24,000 nucleotides of DNA from Metabacillus lacus. GTDB lineage: Bacteria; Bacillota; Bacilli; Bacillales; Bacillaceae. The stretch's first letter is position 1. Each line of letters opens with the position of its first letter. Of this stretch, positions 2,708-19,899 are shown in pieces. The translations under genes were made by a program, and so were the position numbers. The stretch covers positions 22,774 to 46,773 of the forward strand of contig NZ_WKKI01000028.1 in NCBI RefSeq assembly GCF_009674805.1, written 5' to 3'. The notes beneath the pieces were generated by a model. That model searched no databases. It saw nothing but the letters and a program-made list of their open reading frames with translations, and was not told the DNA's origin.

Positions 2708-4774
2708 TTATTTTGCGATATTATATTTTTCCATTTTATAATACAGGCTTCTTAGGGAAATTCCTAACGCCTTAGCTGTGTTAGTTCTGTTGTAACCGTT
2801 GTTTTCCAAGGCTGCCCTGATGATTTTGGCTTCCTGCTCTTCCATCAGGTCTGCCAGAGCAGCTCCCTCTGGCCAAATATCTGCTTCAGCTTGTGCTTTA
2901 TGCAGTTTGCTTCTGCTTTCCGTTAACGGCGGCAGATGTTCAGCCCCTATGAAAGTTTCACTAAGATTCATGAAGATAATGGCCCTTCCCAGAACATTCT
3001 CCAGTTCGCGCACATTTCCCGGCCATTCATATTTCATGAATGTTTCCATCGCCTTTTGCTCCACACCCGAAATATTCCTGCCGTAATCCTGGTTCAGCTT
3101 CCGAATGAGGTGAGAGCACAGAGAGGGAATATCACCTTTTCTATTTCTAAGGGGAGGAATGGAAATTGGATAGCGGTTCAGCCTGTAATACAAATCTTCC
3201 CGAAAGGAACCGAGGGCCATCGCCTTTTCAATATTCACGTTGGTTGCCGCAATCACCCTGACATTAATGGGCAGAGGTTTGGTTCCTCCAACTCTGACAA
3301 TTTCTTTTTCCTGAAGCACCCTTAACAGTTTTGCCTGCATGCTTGCTGAGAGTTCGCCAATCTCATCCAGGAAAATGCTTCCATTGTTTGCTTCTTCAAA
3401 GAAGCCTCTTTTCCCGCCTCTTTTCGCTCCTGAAAATGCACCTTCTTCATAGCCAAACAACTCGCTTTCCAGGAGGTTTTCAGAAATAGCCGCACAGTTG
3501 ACTCTTATAAATTTGTTATATTTTCGGTCGCTGCCATTGTGTATAGCATGTGCAAATAATTCTTTTCCCGTTCCTGACTCTCCCCTTAAAAGGACGGTCG
3601 CAGGAGTTTTCGCACCAAGCTTGGCCTGTTCCACAGCAACCTGCATCTCTTCACTGCCTCCGATAATATCAGCAAATGAATATTTCGCTTCCAGCGTCCG
3701 GATGATTTGCCGCGCTCTGTTTAACTCCGCAGTCAAGGTCTGAATTTCAGAAACATCATGAATGACACCTACACTGCCCTTCAGGATGCTGTCAACAATT
3801 ATTGGAGCGACATTCACGAGTACCTCTCTTTTATGAGGCCCAACCTTCATTCTCGCTCCCCTGACAGGCCTTCTTGTTTGAAGGACTCTAACATGCATGC
3901 TGTCCCCTTCAGAAATGTCAATATCAGCAGGCTTTCCGATTACCTGATCTTCCGTCAGCCCTGTCATCCTTGTATACGCTGGATTGATCAGCAGACCCCT
4001 GCCCTCTTCATCCACTACAGAAATGGCCTCATCTGAAGATTGGATAATCGCCTGCAGCATTGTTTGTATTTCTTTAAGGTTGGTAATTTCCTCCGCCAGC
4101 TGAACAACCTCTGTGATGTCTTTAAAGAGAGAAAGAGCACCGAGCAGATGGCCGGTATCATCAATAATCGGCATTCTTGTGGAGATAATTTTCAATCCAT
4201 TTTCAAGTATCTGCTCCTGATTGTATTCAGCCTCCCGCGTCTCAAGGATGGAGGGGAGTTTGCTTGAAGGAACAATTTCCTGAATTTTGCGGCCCAAGAC
4301 CTCATTTTTGCTTTTACCGGTAATTTGTTCTGCAGTTTTATTAAATAAAAGTATTGTTTCTTCTGTATCTATAAATATCATGCCGTCGTTCGTACTGTTA
4401 AAGATCGTATCGTGCTTATAAGTTTCTTCTCTCAGCCGGGTGATGAGCGACTGTTTTTCCTCTATCAAGTCTGTAATAATATGAGCTACTGCACCCGGAA
4501 TAATGACAGTTTTGCTGCTTCTTAATGTTAACAGAGACTGCAGGACATCCTCGCTGCCAGTTGCCTCAATCACGATGTCTATCTGATCTGACATTAACGG
4601 CTTCCAATCTTTACTGGTTAAAATCCCCAGATTTCTTGCATATGTAATACCGGGAGCGTTTTCATTAATGTCTACAACCGCAATCACTTCCATCTTCTGC
4701 GTTTCATAGATCATTCGAAGCAAAGCAGTTCCCCCGATTCCTGCTCCCACTAACATAACCCGCTGCATCATCAA
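2708..4774 (-). CDS. bkdR: Sigma-54-dependent transcriptional activator with PAS domains (BkdR)
   Basis: 688-aa ORF. It has an N-terminal Rossmann-like region ([10 protein letters not shown]), PAS-like repeats, and an AAA+ sigma-54 interaction module (GESGTGKE Walker A; GAFSGA, a variant of GAFTGA). The C-terminus has a Fis-type HTH ([20 protein letters not shown]). Confidence 0.9.
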
Positions 4775-10842: not shown

Positions 10843-11033
10843 GCAGCACCCCTTGTAATTTGCAAAAAAACTCTATTGCATGTTTATACCCTTTATGTTA
10901 TATGATTCATCCAAAAAAGTACATGTTTTGTTTAAGCTGTTTTTGTGATCATAAGAAAAACAGTTGTTATCATGTTCTTCTCCAAATTTTCTTATACCTT
11001 ATTGTTTACCCGTTCATTTCAACATGATTCATA

Positions 11034-11064
11034 CATAAAAAAAGGAAAGAAAGCTGCTGCTTTC
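11034..11064 (-). terminator. Rho-independent terminator after tlyA
   Basis: The minus strand reads GAAAGC-agca-GCTTTC, a 6-bp stem that overlaps the TGA stop. It is followed by TTTCCTTTTTTT. Confidence 0.65.
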
Positions 11065-13818: not shown

Positions 13819-14424
13819 TCACTTTCGACTGTTATTTCGTTTCTTTTTCTTTTTATCATTTAATAAGCTTATGTTAAACCGCTTTTCGAGCAAATAAAAC
13901 AGCTTACCGACCTGATATATTATATCAGTTGAAAATCTGATTGCAATTGACTTGCCAAAGGCCTTGCCGCCCACTGTCATAGCTGCAATCACACTTGTGA
14001 ATATCACAGATATAACGAGCTGCTGATAGGAAGCTTCCCCAAATTGAAAGCTGAATGACAACTGAACAACTACAATAGCTGAGGCTGTCCCGCTGATAAT
14101 CCCTGATATATCTCCAATAACGTCATTACAGAAACTCGCAAATCTGTCGGCATTTCTAATAATGACGATAGCCTGTTTCGCTCCATCCACTTTTTTGGAT
14201 GCCATAGCATGAAACGGCACTTCATCTGCTGCTGTTGCTGCTATACCAAGCATATCAAAGAAGACACCAATTAGTACAATAATAAATACAATTCCCATGC
14301 CGATCGCCCAGCCAACGCCGCCCAGCGTTGCAGTAGCTACAACTGAAAAAATAGCCGCTAACACAAATGTGATAACGGCAATTCCCAAACTCCAATTTAT
14401 AGAATCTCTGAATAAATCTTTCAT
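13819..14424 (-). CDS. oapA: Four-TM membrane protein, candidate OLE-associated protein A
   Basis: 201 aa, with four hydrophobic helices at roughly residues 12-33, 38-63, 102-122 and 136-156, and a Lys-rich C-terminal tail. It lies immediately downstream of the OLE-like RNA with no intervening terminator, and immediately upstream of dxs. This is the position and the size (about 21 kDa, 4 TM) described for OapA. The assignment is by context and topology, not by sequence search. Confidence 0.7.
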   Translation of the reverse strand: MKDLFRDSINWSLGIAVITFVLAAIFSVVATATLGGVGWAIGMGIVFIIVLIGVFFDMLGIAATAADEVPFHAMASKKVDGAKQAIVIIRNADRFASFCNDVIGDISGIISGTASAIVVVQLSFSFQFGEASYQQLVISVIFTSVIAAMTVGGKAFGKSIAIRFSTDIIYQVGKLFYLLEKRFNISLLNDKKKKKRNNSRK

Positions 14425-14463
14425 AAGGTTATATTCGCACCTAACTTAACAAATTATGTATGC

Positions 14464-15078
14464 GGAGTGGTCATGGATAAAGTAAAAATTACGGCTTAGG
14501 TCCAGTAGGTTTTCCCAAGCAGGTACCGAGCGTTGCCACTCTGGCGGTTTCCCTTTAAACCTCCCTTAGCATTGTCACCAGATGCTAGACTGGATTACCA
14601 CTTAGTCCGTACTATAATCCCTTATCATGCCACATTGAACAGTCTAGGAGATTTCCTCAACAGCCCTTAACCCATTCCTATCCTCTTTTGCAGAGCTGAT
14701 TTCATCCGGTATATAAAGCCGCCGCCATTGGCCATATGGCTGTTGCTGTATGGAACCGAAATCCCCTCAAACTCCACTCAAGGCAGGCTACGCTGCACTA
14801 ATCCATTTTCCTTTAGTAAGAAAAATAAATTCGATAGCAGGTTTTATACCCTTATTTTATATCAAATAAATCAAATAAAATAAGGGCCTCCGCGGAAAGA
14901 GGGTCTACGCCCACATGCCATTGTGGATCGCCCTCAAACCTTAACTCCCGGCATCAGCCCAAGGCTGGGCGCCTCAAGCCGACACAAGGAACTTCATCGA
15001 TGTGCCCTTTAGCGGATTTTTAGGCCCGCCCTCGGAACAGGTAGGCTGACTAGAATACTGCACCACTCCTGAAAATGT
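14464..15078 (-). ncRNA. ole: Large structured non-coding RNA, OLE (ornate, large, extremophilic) class; ends approximate
   Basis: The gap at 14425-15230 has no ORF of 60 aa or more on either strand, inside an otherwise tightly packed operon. By hand count G+C is about 57% over 14881-15060 and about 53% over 14521-14580, against AT-rich flanks. A dedicated promoter ends about 7 nt upstream of 15078. An 8-bp helix pairs the 5' end (GGAGUGGU, 15062-15069) with the 3' end (ACCACUCC, 14464-14471), enclosing about 600 nt, and there are many internal helices (see findings). The order ispA-RNA-membrane protein-dxs-tlyA-argR-recN matches the reported OLE locus of B. halodurans as I recall it. No covariance-model search was possible. 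Confidence 0.7.
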
Positions 15079-15084
15079 AACTTA

Positions 15085-15113
15085 ATTATAGCATATTTAT
15101 GTGGTAATCTCAA
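15085..15113 (-). promoter_or_regulatory. Sigma-A promoter driving the OLE-like RNA
   Basis: The minus strand reads TTGAGA (15108-15113), a 17-nt spacer, then TATAAT (15085-15090), a perfect -10 box. Confidence 0.65.
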
Positions 15114-15230: not shown

Positions 15231-16115
15231 TTAATGATCTCTTTCTGCAACCAGTCGGCATAAACCCTTTAATAAGAAAGAGTCTATGTTCAGGGACTTC
15301 AGAAGATTTAAAGCTTTTTCAATGTGTTCATTGAGCTTTTCTCTTGCACCGTCCGCTGCCAGCAGAGATGGATATGTTGTTTTTTCGTTCACGCTGTCTG
15401 AGCCGACAGGTTTCCCAATTTTCTCTTCAATTCCTTCAATATCCAGCAGGTCGTCCTTAATTTGAAAGGCTATACCAATGTGAAAAGCAAATTCCCTGAG
15501 TTTTTTTATATCAGCTTCCGGCGCATCCGAGAGTATTCCCCCGGCAACTGCACTGAACTGAAGCAGGCGGGCTGTTTTATGTTCATGGATGTATTGAAGC
15601 TGTTCCAGGGTTAACGCCGCTGATTCACCTTCCATATCTGCCACCTGTCCACCGGCCATTCCTTCAGCTCCTGAAGCTTTGACAAGTTCGCTGATCAGCC
15701 TGACCTTTATTTCAGCAGGGATTCTGTTCCCAGACTCTGCAAGGAGTGCAAAGCTCTGCGTTAAAAGGCCGTCGCCTGCCAATACGGCAAGTGCCTCTCC
15801 GTACACCTTATGGTTGGTAGGCTTTCCTCTCCTTAAATCATCATCATCCATGCAGGGAAGATCATCATGGATGAGAGAATAAGTATGAATCATCTCTACC
15901 GCACATGCCGCGTCTACACCAATGCTTTCATCCTTGCCGTACGCATTCAGGACAGCAAGAAGCAGTACTGGGCGAAGTCTCTTGCCTCCTGCCTGCAAGG
16001 AATAATTCATAGAAGACTTCAGCGAAGAAGGAGCTTTCAATTCCTCGATATAAGATGGAAGCTTATCCTCAATGAGCTGTTTTCTCGTTTCTAGAAATGT
16101 TAAAAAGTCAGGCAC
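15231..16115 (-). CDS. ispA: Farnesyl diphosphate synthase
   Basis: 294-aa ORF with both aspartate-rich motifs of trans-prenyltransferases: LIHDDLPCMDDDDLRRGKPT and FQIKDDLLD. Confidence 0.95.
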   Translation of the reverse strand: MPDFLTFLETRKQLIEDKLPSYIEELKAPSSLKSSMNYSLQAGGKRLRPVLLLAVLNAYGKDESIGVDAACAVEMIHTYSLIHDDLPCMDDDDLRRGKPTNHKVYGEALAVLAGDGLLTQSFALLAESGNRIPAEIKVRLISELVKASGAEGMAGGQVADMEGESAALTLEQLQYIHEHKTARLLQFSAVAGGILSDAPEADIKKLREFAFHIGIAFQIKDDLLDIEGIEEKIGKPVGSDSVNEKTTYPSLLAADGAREKLNEHIEKALNLLKSLNIDSFLLKGLCRLVAERDH

Positions 16116-18992: not shown

Positions 18993-19850
18993 TGTTTTAA
19001 CTCCTTCAATTGTGGTTCGAATGTCTTAAACAGATAATAACATATAACAAAGTGGAAAAAAACCGTAAATATACTGTTTTCCTCTTGAATTCCGAATGTT
19101 ATTACCCTGCGTTTATTAATCATTCGCTTTTTATTGTTTAATGGTTTTTTACTTAGTACTTGCTGAGGAAACTGGTTAAGCACCATTTTTCAGTTAATAG
19201 ACGTCACATATCCATTTAATTTGATATGGCGGTAAAAAAAGCCGGGAATAGCCGGAGACATTCCGTCTCTTAGCGTTTACTATCGTACAAACGGGGTTTC
19301 ATCAGCATAGCCGTAAAGTTTCTGCTTATTTTTCTTAAAAAAGTGATTCTCTGGACGTATGAGAAAAAGCTCCTCTTATTACTCTTTCGTCGGTGAATCA
19401 ATTGATGCTGATACACTTGAATATTCCTTGGAGCTTGTTTAGATCGACAACAAGAAACCTTCCATCAAGCATAATTATATAGCACAGCCTTCTTGAAAAG
19501 GCGGGATAACCATCTGAAGCCGGATCCTGCCCTCTTAAGTGATTTCAATATTATATAGTATTGCCTGCGGATTGAATAGTAAAATTGCAACTTCAAATAA
19601 AATTGCCGAGAGTATCTTTTGTGTACGCTGTTTTCCTGCACCATTAGTGGATCGCACTCGGCTGTACAGGCAGCTCAGCCGACAGAGCAGCTGCGCACTT
19701 GTCTGGTATTTGTAGCTTGAATCGCACTGCTTCATCTTCTTATAACTATATCACAAGTTTACTATCTCTTTTGAGGCTTTTTGCCTGACGAGAGTACTGT
19801 CAGCTTCCTGCTGAGTTCATCTTGGAGGGAATATATGCTTTCCTAACACA

Positions 19851-19891
19851 GAAAAAGCAAAAAGCCCCTTTAACAAAAGAGGCTTTTTTGC
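19851..19891 (-). terminator. Strong rho-independent terminator after yqhY
   Basis: The minus strand reads GCAAAAAAGCCUCUUU-uguu-AAAGGGGCUUUUUGC, a stem of about 15 bp, followed by UUUUUC. One pair is G-U on the minus-strand RNA but a C-A mismatch on the plus strand. Confidence 0.8.
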
Positions 19892-19899
19892 TCATAATA

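What the first reader, a model, noticed from the sequence alone, without database searches (positions are those of the whole stretch)
14464..15078. ORF-free, G+C-rich RNA element of about 610 nt between ispA and dxs: an OLE-class RNA
Most gene junctions in this operon-like array are 0-25 bp, but 806 bp separate ispA from the next ORF. No ORF of 60 aa or more occurs there on either strand.

The core is much more G+C-rich than the flanking spacers. By hand count it is about 57% over 14881-15060.

The element has its own near-consensus sigma-A promoter. It is also full of nested complementary segments on the minus-strand reading:
- an 8-bp helix pairing the two ends (15062-15069 with 14464-14471)
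- GAGGG/CCCUC enclosing CCACA/UGUGG (about 14900-14938)
- GGUAUA/UAUACC (14845-14850 with 14708-14713) closing a 130-nt domain
- a 13-bp interrupted helix at 14585-14647
- a GNRA-capped hairpin at 14528-14541

The size and the context (ispA - RNA - 4-TM protein - dxs - tlyA - argR - recN) match what was reported for OLE RNA in Bacillus halodurans and other extremophilic Firmicutes.

The class has been known since 2006 and is linked to alcohol, cold and Mg2+ stress tolerance. Its biochemical role is still unknown, which makes this the most unusual element in the window. The individual short helices are near chance expectation; the combined evidence carries the call.
Basis: partly seen in the sequence, partly recalled or inferred. 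Interest (0 to 1): 0.85.

Follow-up and report, generated by a model that had tools for sequence, protein, structure and literature searches.

The report
Textbook OLE RNA beside oapA

Summary
The finding is confirmed. Rfam's OLE model (RF01071) matches window 15082-14451 on the minus strand over its full length (489 bits, gathering score 50, E 6e-141). It is the only Rfam hit in the window.

The element is 80% identical to the Halalkalibacterium halodurans OLE RNA. Its gene order is the same: folD-xseA-xseB-ispA-OLE-oapA-dxs-tlyA-argR-recN. The 201-aa downstream ORF is an OapA orthologue, 66% identical to the H. halodurans protein. The host is Metabacillus (Bacillus) lacus, a salt-lake bacillus.

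- Three of five are real: the 8-bp terminal helix (P1, strong covariation), the GAGGG/CCACA hairpin, and the GCAA hairpin.
- Two conflict with covarying helices and are rejected: GGUAUA/UAUACC and CUAGACUG/CAGUCUAG.

The near-consensus promoter holds its position in 54 of 92 homologues. The "G+C-rich" description fits only the 5' third.

The most likely role, taken from work on other species, is an abundant, stable RNA that dimerises and binds OapA, OapB and OapC at the membrane. There it would act as the regulatory and scaffold part of a stress-tolerance particle.

Novelty: already known. Interest is low. A conserved UACAUA box just after the 3' end is a minor open lead.

The parts
14451..15082 (-). 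OLE RNA gene (Rfam RF01071), full-length type
   Evidence: cmscan gives 489.2 bits (GA 50), E 6.4e-141, model 1-616/616. It is 80% identical to the H. halodurans OLE. MFE z-score is -4.1.
15085..15113 (-). Proximal sigma-A-type promoter-like site: -35 TTGAGA 15113-15108, TG 15093-15092, -10 TATAAT 15090-15085. The predicted start is about 15078, roughly 9 nt before P1.
   Evidence: It matches 11 of 12 positions. An equivalent site (at least 9/12, 4-20 nt upstream of P1) occurs in 54 of 92 homologues, against a mean of 7 and a maximum of 15 in shuffles; 45 of these carry the TG extension. The equivalent H. halodurans promoter is experimentally active (PMC3413148).
15203..15223 (-). Terminator-like hairpin plus U run at the end of ispA, upstream of the OLE promoter
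   Evidence: Consensus scan: 9-bp stem followed by TTTTTGCGCT. Function is inferred.
15062..15069 (-). P1, 5' strand (GGAGUGGU)
   Evidence: It pairs with 14471-14464. Across 92 sequences 92.4% of cells are paired and 7 of 8 pairs show compensatory changes; slid controls give 30-63%. The MFE fold recovers it.
14464..14471 (-). P1, 3' strand (ACCACUCC)
   Evidence: Same evidence as the P1 5' strand.
15034..15048 (-). P3.1 and P3, 5' strands (CAGCCU / ACCUGUUCC). This long-range helix encloses domain 1 and is proposed in the literature to span the membrane.
   Evidence: P3 (15042-15034 with 14670-14678) is 88% paired with 8 of 9 pairs compensatory. P3.1 (15048-15043 with 14661-14666) is 84% paired with 6 of 6 compensatory. 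The naming follows PMC12265935; my mapping onto that naming is an inference.
14661..14678 (-). P3 and P3.1, 3' strands (GGAAUGGGU..GGGCUG)
   Evidence: recovered by the MFE fold.
15011..15030 (-). Hairpin with the conserved A-rich loop CCUAAAAA. The literature calls it P4, dimer contact B1.
   Evidence: Rfam alignment, model 54-73. The loop is identical in H. halodurans. The dimer role comes from PMC12286853 and PMC12265935.
14899..14935 (-).
   Evidence: It agrees with the Rfam structure, model 144-190. A14934-U14900 covaries (AU 30, GC 21, GU 18, UA 8, CG 6); the GGG/CCC pairs are invariant.
14849..14886 (-). P7 hairpin: a perfect 12-bp, A/U-rich stem (CCCUUAUUUUAU/AUAAAAUAAGGG)
   Evidence: Sequence, Rfam model 195-241 aligned with low posterior, and the MFE fold. 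The region is 17% G+C.
14729..14734 (-). P9 loop palindrome UGGCCA (core GGCC 14733-14730), the dimer kissing loop
   Evidence: GGCC is present in the loop here and was seen in all of the 40 commonest loop variants that were printed. The kissing-loop role and GGCC/GAUC/AGCU covariation are reported in PMC12286853.
14567..14587 (-). P13 hairpin with GUGA tetraloop (14578-14575) and single bulged C14581: the primary OapB-binding site
   Evidence: Rfam model 480-499 and the sequence. The requirement for a GNRA loop plus a 1-nt bulge comes from PMC7936274.
14528..14541 (-). It corresponds to P14.1, the weak second OapB site in H. halodurans.
   Evidence: Rfam structure. The inner pairs covary (UA 52, CG 30, UG 8). 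See also PMC7936274.
14455..14460 (-). UACAUA box, 3 nt after the P1 3' strand; role unknown
   Evidence: TACATA lies 0-9 nt after P1 in 28 of 92 homologues (30 within 30 nt), against a shuffle mean of 1.6 and maximum of 7. It is present in H. halodurans.
13819..14424 (-). oapA (201 aa): 4-TM, CNNM-like membrane partner of OLE RNA
   Evidence: It is 66% identical over its full length to the H. halodurans protein encoded directly after that species' OLE. It has a DxxxD motif at D101-D105, four hydrophobic segments and a K-rich C-terminal tail. The Pfam CNNM match is 22.8 bits, below the cut-off of 28.4. An OapA homologue follows OLE on the same strand in 80 of 81 loci.

Best explanation
Window 15082-14451 (minus strand) is the ole gene of Metabacillus (Bacillus) lacus. 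It is a full-length member of the OLE (ornate, large, extremophilic) RNA class. The gene that follows, oapA, encodes its membrane partner.

Shown here:
- It matches the family model over its full length.
- It keeps the covarying helices, including the end-closing P1 and the long-range P3/P3.1.
- It keeps the conserved loops used for RNA dimerisation (the A-rich loop and the GGCC palindrome).
- It keeps the GUGA-plus-bulge OapB site.
- It has a positionally conserved promoter of its own.
- No terminator separates it from oapA.

Inferred from published work on H. halodurans and Clostridium OLE RNAs:
- The RNA is made mainly from its own promoter, with some read-through from ispA.
- It is trimmed to a stable species of about 610-630 nt that begins near P1.
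- It forms a homodimer and binds OapA (2 proteins per RNA), OapB, OapC and bS21, which takes it to the cell membrane.

Mechanism I commit to (about 50% likely): the RNA is the regulatory and scaffold subunit of the CNNM-like, putative divalent-cation transporter OapA. It would stand in for the cytosolic CBS/CorC domains that the all-protein relative MpfA carries. It would couple membrane and ion status to tolerance of alcohol, cold, excess Mg2+ and poor carbon sources.
For: Identity:
- Rfam OLE hit of 489.2 bits, full length.
- 80% identity to the H. halodurans OLE, which scores 538.6 bits.
- 91 further homologues align end to end.

Fold:
- P1 is 92% paired with 7 of 8 pairs compensatory.
- P3 is 88% paired (8 of 9 compensatory) and P3.1 is 84% paired (6 of 6 compensatory).
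- UCCAGU/ACUGGA is 99.6% paired with 4 of 6 compensatory.
- MFE z-score is -4.1.

Partner gene:
- OapA orthologue, 66% identical, with the DxxxD motif and 4 TM segments.
- Sub-threshold CNNM match, as published for OapA (PMC11332333).
- OapA lies downstream of OLE in 80 of 81 loci.

Context and host:
- Synteny is identical to H. halodurans.
- The host is a Bacillota species from a salt lake.

Expression:
- The promoter is conserved in position in 54 of 92 homologues.

Mechanism, from the literature only: dimer cryo-EM (PMC12286853), the membrane model and MpfA comparison (PMC12265935, PMC11332333), and the OapB site (PMC7936274).
Against: Nothing found here argues against the identity.

Limits:
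- No transcript data exist here for this organism.
- oapB, oapC and mpfA lie outside the window, so their presence or absence could not be checked.
- The biochemical activity of OLE RNA is unproven in any species.
- That OapA transports metal ions is itself only a proposal.
- The P7-P8 region aligns poorly to the model (posterior 2-4 of 10), although this region is known to vary between lineages (PMC11332333).
Confidence: 0.93

Rival explanations
1. The RNA's main job is catalytic. On this view OLE is a ribozyme carrying out an unknown reaction, and the proteins are only folding helpers. This is a rival for the mechanism, not for the identity.
For: Size, roughly 25% near-invariant nucleotides and structural complexity resemble those of known large ribozymes, as argued in PMC11332333 and PMC12265935. 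Long invariant single-stranded runs are present here too, for example AAAGGGCACAUCGAUGAAG and UUUAAAGGGAAACC.
Against: No reaction has been found in about 20 years. Northern data show a single band and no splicing (PMC3413148). The cryo-EM structures show a scaffold-like dimer with protein docking sites (PMC12286853). Nothing in this window bears on catalysis.
Confidence: 0.15
2. The element is a cis-acting 5' leader (riboswitch-like or attenuator-like) that controls oapA-dxs expression, rather than a free-standing RNA.
For: No terminator lies between the element and oapA. Only 39 nt separate the P1 3' strand from the oapA start codon. OLE and oapA are adjacent on one strand in 80 of 81 loci.
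Against: At 630 nt with about 25 helices it is far larger than known leaders. In H. halodurans it accumulates as a single, very stable RNA of about 630 nt, comparable in abundance to RNase P RNA, and it rescues phenotypes together with oapA from a distal locus (PMC3413148). It binds proteins in trans and dimerises (PMC12286853, PMC7936274). The spacing to oapA varies from 0 to 254 nt, and 14 of 92 loci carry a terminator-like hairpin in between.
Confidence: 0.04
3. It is a decayed, non-functional OLE remnant, or a chance structured spacer.
For: The P7-P8 part is unusually A/U-rich and aligns poorly.
Against: The model match is full length at 489 bits. All tested helices are intact here. The conserved loops are intact and oapA is intact. 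The promoter is retained. The z-score is -4.1.
Confidence: 0.01

Closest known systems
OLE RNA of Halalkalibacterium (Bacillus) halodurans C-125 (Rfam RF01071), the experimentally studied reference
   Same: Length is 632 vs 628 nt, with 80% aligned identity. Both have a proximal promoter and P1 at the ends. Both have the A-rich P4 loop, the GGCC P9 loop and the GUGA P13 loop with a 1-nt bulge. Both have the UACAUA box after P1. Flanking genes are identical.
   Different: The P7-P8 segment is divergent and much more A/U-rich here (17% G+C), with about 19 extra nt in P8 relative to the model. The P13 bulge is C rather than U. The second tetraloop is GCAA rather than GCGA. The host is a different genus from a salt lake, and there are no experimental data.
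OLE RNAs of Clostridium acetobutylicum and C. botulinum (cryo-EM dimers; PMC12286853, PMC12265935)
   Same: They belong to the same family and carry the same dimer-contact loop sequences. The P3/P3.1 helix here is 15 bp, comparable to the roughly 12 bp typical of the family.
   Different: The clostridial RNAs are shorter (577 nt in C. acetobutylicum). In the clostridia-titled loci I read, the tail after P1 mostly lacks the UACAUA box (one Clostridium locus, L073, has it).
MpfA/CorB-type CNNM divalent-cation transporters
   Same: OapA's transmembrane region weakly matches the CNNM domain (22.8 bits). The literature proposes that OLE RNP and MpfA have overlapping roles and notes that they anticorrelate across genomes (PMC11332333).
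   Different: OapA has 4 TM helices, a DxxxD motif and no CBS or CorC domains. The RNA is proposed to supply that part, which is an analogy and not homology.
Other large ornate bacterial RNAs (GOLLD, ROOL, raiA)
   Same: They are large, highly structured non-coding RNAs of unknown or partly known function, and some form homo-oligomers (PMC12286853).
   Different: There is no sequence or structure match; only the OLE model hits the window. GOLLD and ROOL are linked to phages and form cages, not membrane RNPs.

Membership tests
OLE RNA (Rfam RF01071) | Covariance-model score above the curated gathering score, over the full model | tested here: met
   489.2 bits against 50; model 1-616/616; E 6.4e-141.
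OLE RNA (Rfam RF01071) | Conserved multi-helix fold supported by covariation, including P1 and P3 | tested here: met
   In 92 sequences, P1 is 92% paired (7/8 compensatory), P3 88% (8/9), P3.1 84% (6/6) and UCCAGU/ACUGGA 99.6% (4/6). The window sequence forms every one of these pairs.
OLE RNA (Rfam RF01071) | Blocks of near-invariant nucleotides (about 25% of positions) | tested here: met
   Long identical runs against the Rfam consensus and H. halodurans, for example GUGGUGCAGUAUUCUAGUCA, AAAGGGCACAUCGAUGAAG, GUAGCCUGCCUUGAGUGGAG and GGACUAAGUGGUAAUCCAGUC.
OLE RNA (Rfam RF01071) | oapA immediately downstream on the same strand | tested here: met
   oapA starts 39 nt after P1. The same arrangement holds in 80 of 81 homologous loci.
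OLE RNA (Rfam RF01071) | Host in Bacillota, typically an extremophile or anaerobe | tested here: met
   The OapA ORF is 100% identical to a Bacillus lacus protein. That species is now Metabacillus lacus, Bacillaceae, and its type strain came from a salt lake.
OLE RNA (Rfam RF01071) | Dimerisation loops (A-rich P4 loop; palindromic P9 loop) | tested here: met
   CCUAAAAA at 15024-15017 and UGGCCA at 14734-14729. Only sequence presence was tested, not dimer formation.
OLE RNA (Rfam RF01071) | OapB site: GNRA tetraloop plus single-nucleotide bulge in P13 | tested here: met
   GUGA at 14578-14575 with bulged C14581. The criterion comes from PMC7936274.
OLE RNA (Rfam RF01071) | Abundant, stable transcript of about 600 nt that localises to the membrane | not testable with these tools
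   This needs RNA-seq, Northern blots or fractionation of M. lacus. Only a promoter-like site and the H. halodurans precedent (PMC3413148) are available.
OLE RNA (Rfam RF01071) | Genome also encodes OapB and OapC and usually lacks MpfA | not testable with these tools
   These genes are not in the 24-kb window, and the rest of the genome could not be fetched.
OapA (OLE-associated protein A) | About 200 aa, four TM helices, DxxxD motif, basic cytoplasmic cluster, sub-threshold CNNM similarity | tested here: met
   The protein is 201 aa. Hydrophobic peaks lie at 13-31, 45-63, about 102-124 and 135-153. The DxxxD motif is DVIGD at 101-105, and the tail reads KKKKKRNNSRK. CNNM scores 22.8 bits, below 28.4, as described in PMC11332333.
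OapA (OLE-associated protein A) | Orthology to H. halodurans OapA | tested here: met
   66% identity over 201 aa, E 3e-94. That protein sits directly after the H. halodurans OLE.

The most novel reading that the evidence does not exclude
The UACAUA box that sits 0-9 nt after the P1 3' strand (window 14460-14455) is conserved mostly in loci titled as Bacilli and is anchored to OLE rather than to the oapA start codon. It may be the determinant of OLE 3'-end formation or stability, for example an RNase or protein recognition site. In loci like this one, which have no terminator, it would separate the stable RNA from the co-transcribed oapA mRNA. I found no description of it in the OLE papers I could search.
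Probability: 0.2. Interest if true: 0.35.

Novelty: already known. Interest (0 to 1): 0.2.

Why it matters
It shows that the first-stage reader can recognise a large structured RNA from raw sequence, at nearly exact boundaries (14464-15078 against 14451-15082).

Biologically the locus is one more ordinary OLE-oapA pair. A published survey counted 2,822 OLE hits in Bacillota (PMC11332333). The class remains interesting, as a possible membrane-spanning RNA of unproven biochemistry, but this copy opens no new test beyond what H. halodurans already offers.

Two by-products may be useful:
- The Rfam structure line omits the strongly covarying P1 and P3/P3.1 helices.
- A conserved UACAUA box follows the 3' end in Bacilli.

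Tried and rejected
Only 61.5% of cells are paired, several columns are mostly gaps, and slid controls reach 49%. G14850 and G14849 already pair within the 12-bp P7 stem, and 14710-14706 lies in a Rfam helix. Rejected.
It is 76% paired, but almost only through one-sided changes. Its 3' half belongs to UCCAGU/ACUGGA (99.6% paired, 4 of 6 compensatory) and to the P13 stem. The A/G by U/C counts at 14643/14589 match independence. Rejected as part of the conserved fold; a transient alternative pairing cannot be excluded.
- **GGAUUA/UAAUCC.** It is mostly invariant, and two of its six pairs clash with a covarying helix. The inner UUAU/GUAA part shows 11 double changes. Left open.
- **Exact-sequence look-ups of the window's OapA** in the assembly index found nothing. 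The organism was identified from the protein search instead.
- **Terminator versus UACAUA box.** Terminator-like hairpins occur in 2 of 28 box-bearing loci and 12 of 64 others. No clear anticorrelation.
- **Literature search for the ACAUA motif in OLE papers.** No relevant hit. Figures are not searchable.
- **The 907-bp spacer between the yqhY-like gene and nusB** was checked as a possible second RNA. There was no Rfam match and the z-score was +0.27.
- **Positive controls.** Two of my control helices were first mis-registered by one base. The slid -1 value for CCACA/UGUGG (79.6%) and the correctly registered pairs of GAGGG/CCCUC support both helices.

Full report
**Observation.**
- ispA's ORF ends at 15231 and the next ORF on the minus strand starts at 14424, so the gap is 806 bp. 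Inside it the longest ORFs on either strand are 45, 51 and 52 aa.
- G+C is 57.2% over 14881-15060, as stated. The whole element is 46.4%, against 42.8% for the window and 34.5% for the two short flanking spacers. Its P7-P8 part is as low as 17%. 'G+C-rich' therefore fits only the 5' third.
- A promoter-like site, TTGAGA-17-TG-TATAAT, lies at 15113-15085 on the minus strand and matches 11 of 12 positions. A terminator-like hairpin sits at the end of ispA (15223-15203). No terminator-like site lies between the element and the next ORF.
- The 606-nt core folds 26 kcal/mol better than dinucleotide shuffles (z = -4.1, 0 of 20 as good).

**Identity.**
- Rfam's covariance-model library gives one hit in the 24-kb window: OLE (RF01071), 15082-14451, minus strand, 489.2 bits against a gathering score of 50, E 6.4e-141, model positions 1-616 of 616.
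P1 runs from 15069 to 14464.
- I fetched the H. halodurans locus through its OapA protein. Its OLE scores 538.6 bits and aligns to the window element at 80% column identity.
Of these, 91 carried an end-to-end OLE homologue with enough flank. I aligned them with the window sequence using MAFFT L-INS-i, giving 92 rows.

1. *Terminal 8-bp helix (15069-15062 with 14471-14464).* It is real. 92.4% of cells are paired and 7 of 8 pairs show changes on both sides, against 30-63% for slid controls. Examples are GGAAUGGU/ACCAUUCC, UGACGGCG/CGCCGUCA and GUAGAAGGUU/AACCUUCUAC. The Rfam structure line leaves it unpaired. It matches what the literature calls P1, near which the H. halodurans 5' ends map (PMC3413148).
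2. *GAGGG/CCCUC enclosing CCACA/UGUGG.* It agrees with the Rfam structure, and its outer A-U pair covaries.
3. *GGUAUA/UAUACC.* Not supported. It is 61.5% paired with gappy columns. Its two G's belong to the perfect 12-bp P7 stem (14886-14875 with 14860-14849).
4. *The 13-bp helix at 14585-14647.* Not supported as conserved structure. It is 76% paired, almost all through one-sided changes. Its 3' half is held by UCCAGU/ACUGGA (14594-14589 with 14506-14501; 99.6% paired, 4 of 6 compensatory) and by the P13 stem.
5. *The GCAA hairpin at 14528-14541.* It is real. It corresponds to the second, weaker OapB site of H. halodurans (PMC7936274).

I also found a long-range helix that Rfam does not annotate. 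It consists of 15042-15034 with 14670-14678 (88% paired, 8 of 9 compensatory) and 15048-15043 with 14661-14666 (84% paired, 6 of 6 compensatory). This fits the published P3/P3.1, which encloses 'domain 1' and is proposed to cross the membrane (PMC12265935). The MFE fold recovers P1, P3/P3.1 and P7 without any constraints.

The published functional landmarks are present:
- the A-rich hairpin loop CCUAAAAA (15024-15017);
- the P9-loop palindrome UGGCCA (14734-14729), whose GGCC core was seen in all of the 40 commonest loop variants printed and forms the dimer kissing loop (PMC12286853);
- P13 with a GUGA tetraloop (14578-14575) and a single bulged C14581, which is the primary OapB site (PMC7936274).

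With P7, P8 and P9 all present and a length of 632 nt, this is the 'full-length' type rather than the reduced variants (PMC11332333).

**Context and host.**
- All genes lie on the minus strand in this order: spoIIIAG, accB, accC, an Asp23-family gene, nusB, folD, xseA, xseB, ispA, OLE, a 201-aa ORF, dxs, tlyA, ahrC/argR, recN, spoIVB, spo0A. H. halodurans has the same order around its OLE.
- The 201-aa ORF is 66% identical over its full length to the H. halodurans protein that follows OLE there.
- It has four hydrophobic segments, the DxxxD motif (DVIGD, 101-105) and a lysine-rich tail.
- It matches Pfam CNNM only below threshold (22.8 against 28.4 bits). This is the behaviour published for OapA (PMC11332333).
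- An OapA homologue follows OLE on the same strand in 80 of 81 loci with enough downstream sequence, at a median spacing of about 56 nt.
- The ORF is 100% identical to a Bacillus lacus protein. That species is now Metabacillus lacus, Bacillaceae, and was described from a salt lake in India.

**Expression (inferred).**
- A promoter-like site scoring at least 9 of 12, placed 4-20 nt upstream of P1, occurs in 54 of 92 homologues. Shuffles give a mean of 7 and a maximum of 15. Of the 54, 45 carry the TG extension.
- In H. halodurans the equivalent promoter raises OLE expression more than 100-fold. There the RNA is a single, very stable species, and some is also co-transcribed with its neighbours (PMC3413148, PMC9723947).
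- In this window the ispA terminator-like hairpin, the OLE promoter and the lack of a terminator before oapA suggest an ole-oapA(-dxs) transcript from which the stable RNA is released.
- How the 3' end forms is not described in the papers I could read.

**Mechanism.**
- *Shown here:* family membership, intact fold, intact partner-binding and dimer motifs, intact partner gene, and a conserved promoter position.
- *Inferred from other species:* homodimer formation, binding of OapA, OapB, OapC and bS21, membrane localisation, and roles in tolerance of alcohol, cold, excess Mg2+ and poor carbon sources (PMC12286853, PMC12265935, PMC10898510 abstract).
- *My committed reading, at about 50%:* the RNA is the regulatory and scaffold subunit of the CNNM-like, putative cation transporter OapA, replacing the cytosolic domains of the all-protein relative MpfA.
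- *Rivals for mechanism:* a ribozyme (about 15%) and a cis-acting leader of oapA (about 4%).
- *Rival for identity:* a decayed copy or chance spacer (about 1%).

**Comparison and novelty.** This is a member of a class described in 2006, held in Rfam, and counted at 2,822 hits in Bacillota (PMC11332333). It sits in the commonest gene neighbourhood, in the kind of host where OLE is expected. It differs from the H. halodurans reference only in the lineage-variable P7-P8 segment and in small details. I rate it already known, with low interest for a discovery scan.

**Dead ends.**
- Exact look-ups of the window's OapA failed.
- A text search for the ACAUA motif in OLE papers found nothing relevant.
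- Terminator presence does not clearly anticorrelate with the UACAUA box.
- The long spacer upstream of nusB shows no sign of a structured RNA.

**Caveat on method.** My covariation counts are cell counts on a MAFFT alignment of related sequences, not event-based statistics. The contrasts with slid controls and with competing pairings are large, but R-scape on an Infernal alignment would be the proper test.

Noticed in passing
window 14455-14460 (minus strand); also L121 about 3940-3950 and many Bacillaceae loci: A UACAUA box lies 3 nt after the P1 3' strand. TACATA lies 0-9 nt after P1 in 28 of 92 OLE loci (30 within 30 nt), against a shuffle mean of 1.6 and maximum of 7. By record title these are mostly Bacilli. 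Its distance to the oapA start varies from 14 to 233 nt, so it belongs with OLE and not with the ribosome-binding site. It may be a 3'-end or processing signal.
   Followed up: partly
window 15034-15069 with 14464-14471 and 14661-14678: The Rfam RF01071 consensus structure leaves the end-closing helix P1 and the long-range helix P3/P3.1 unpaired. Both covary strongly in 92 sequences and appear in the unconstrained MFE fold. Structure-aware scores from Rfam therefore ignore about 23 real base pairs.
   Followed up: yes
window 18993-19899: A 907-bp stretch between an Asp23-family (yqhY-like) gene and nusB has no ORF longer than 66 aa. It has no Rfam match (best 25 bits against a cut-off of 80) and no excess folding energy (z = +0.27). 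Terminator-like hairpins lie near 19890-19858 and 19262-19235. This is an unusually long spacer for this operon-like array and could be a decayed gene.
   Followed up: partly
window 14614-14617 with 14595-14598: The short UUAU/GUAA complement inside the conserved GGAUUA...UAAUCC segments shows AU-to-GC double changes in 11 sequences at 14615/14597. It may be a small extra helix in domain 2.
   Followed up: partly
window 14790-14886: The P7-P8 segment of this OLE is extremely A/U-rich (17-33% G+C). P7 is a perfect 12-bp stem whose 14-nt loop (UUGAUUUAUUUGAU) contains UUUGAU twice. P8 carries about 19 nt more than the Rfam model.
   Followed up: partly
window 10843-11062: A 220-bp gap between tlyA and ahrC/argR is the only other long junction in the array. 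It probably holds the argR promoter, but I did not examine it.
   Followed up: no
loci L103, L002, L054, L111, L051, L092, L031, L058 (just after OLE): A minority of OLE genes (14 of 92) are followed by a terminator-like hairpin before oapA, while most, including this window, are not. The way the OLE 3' end is made therefore seems to differ between lineages.
   Followed up: partly
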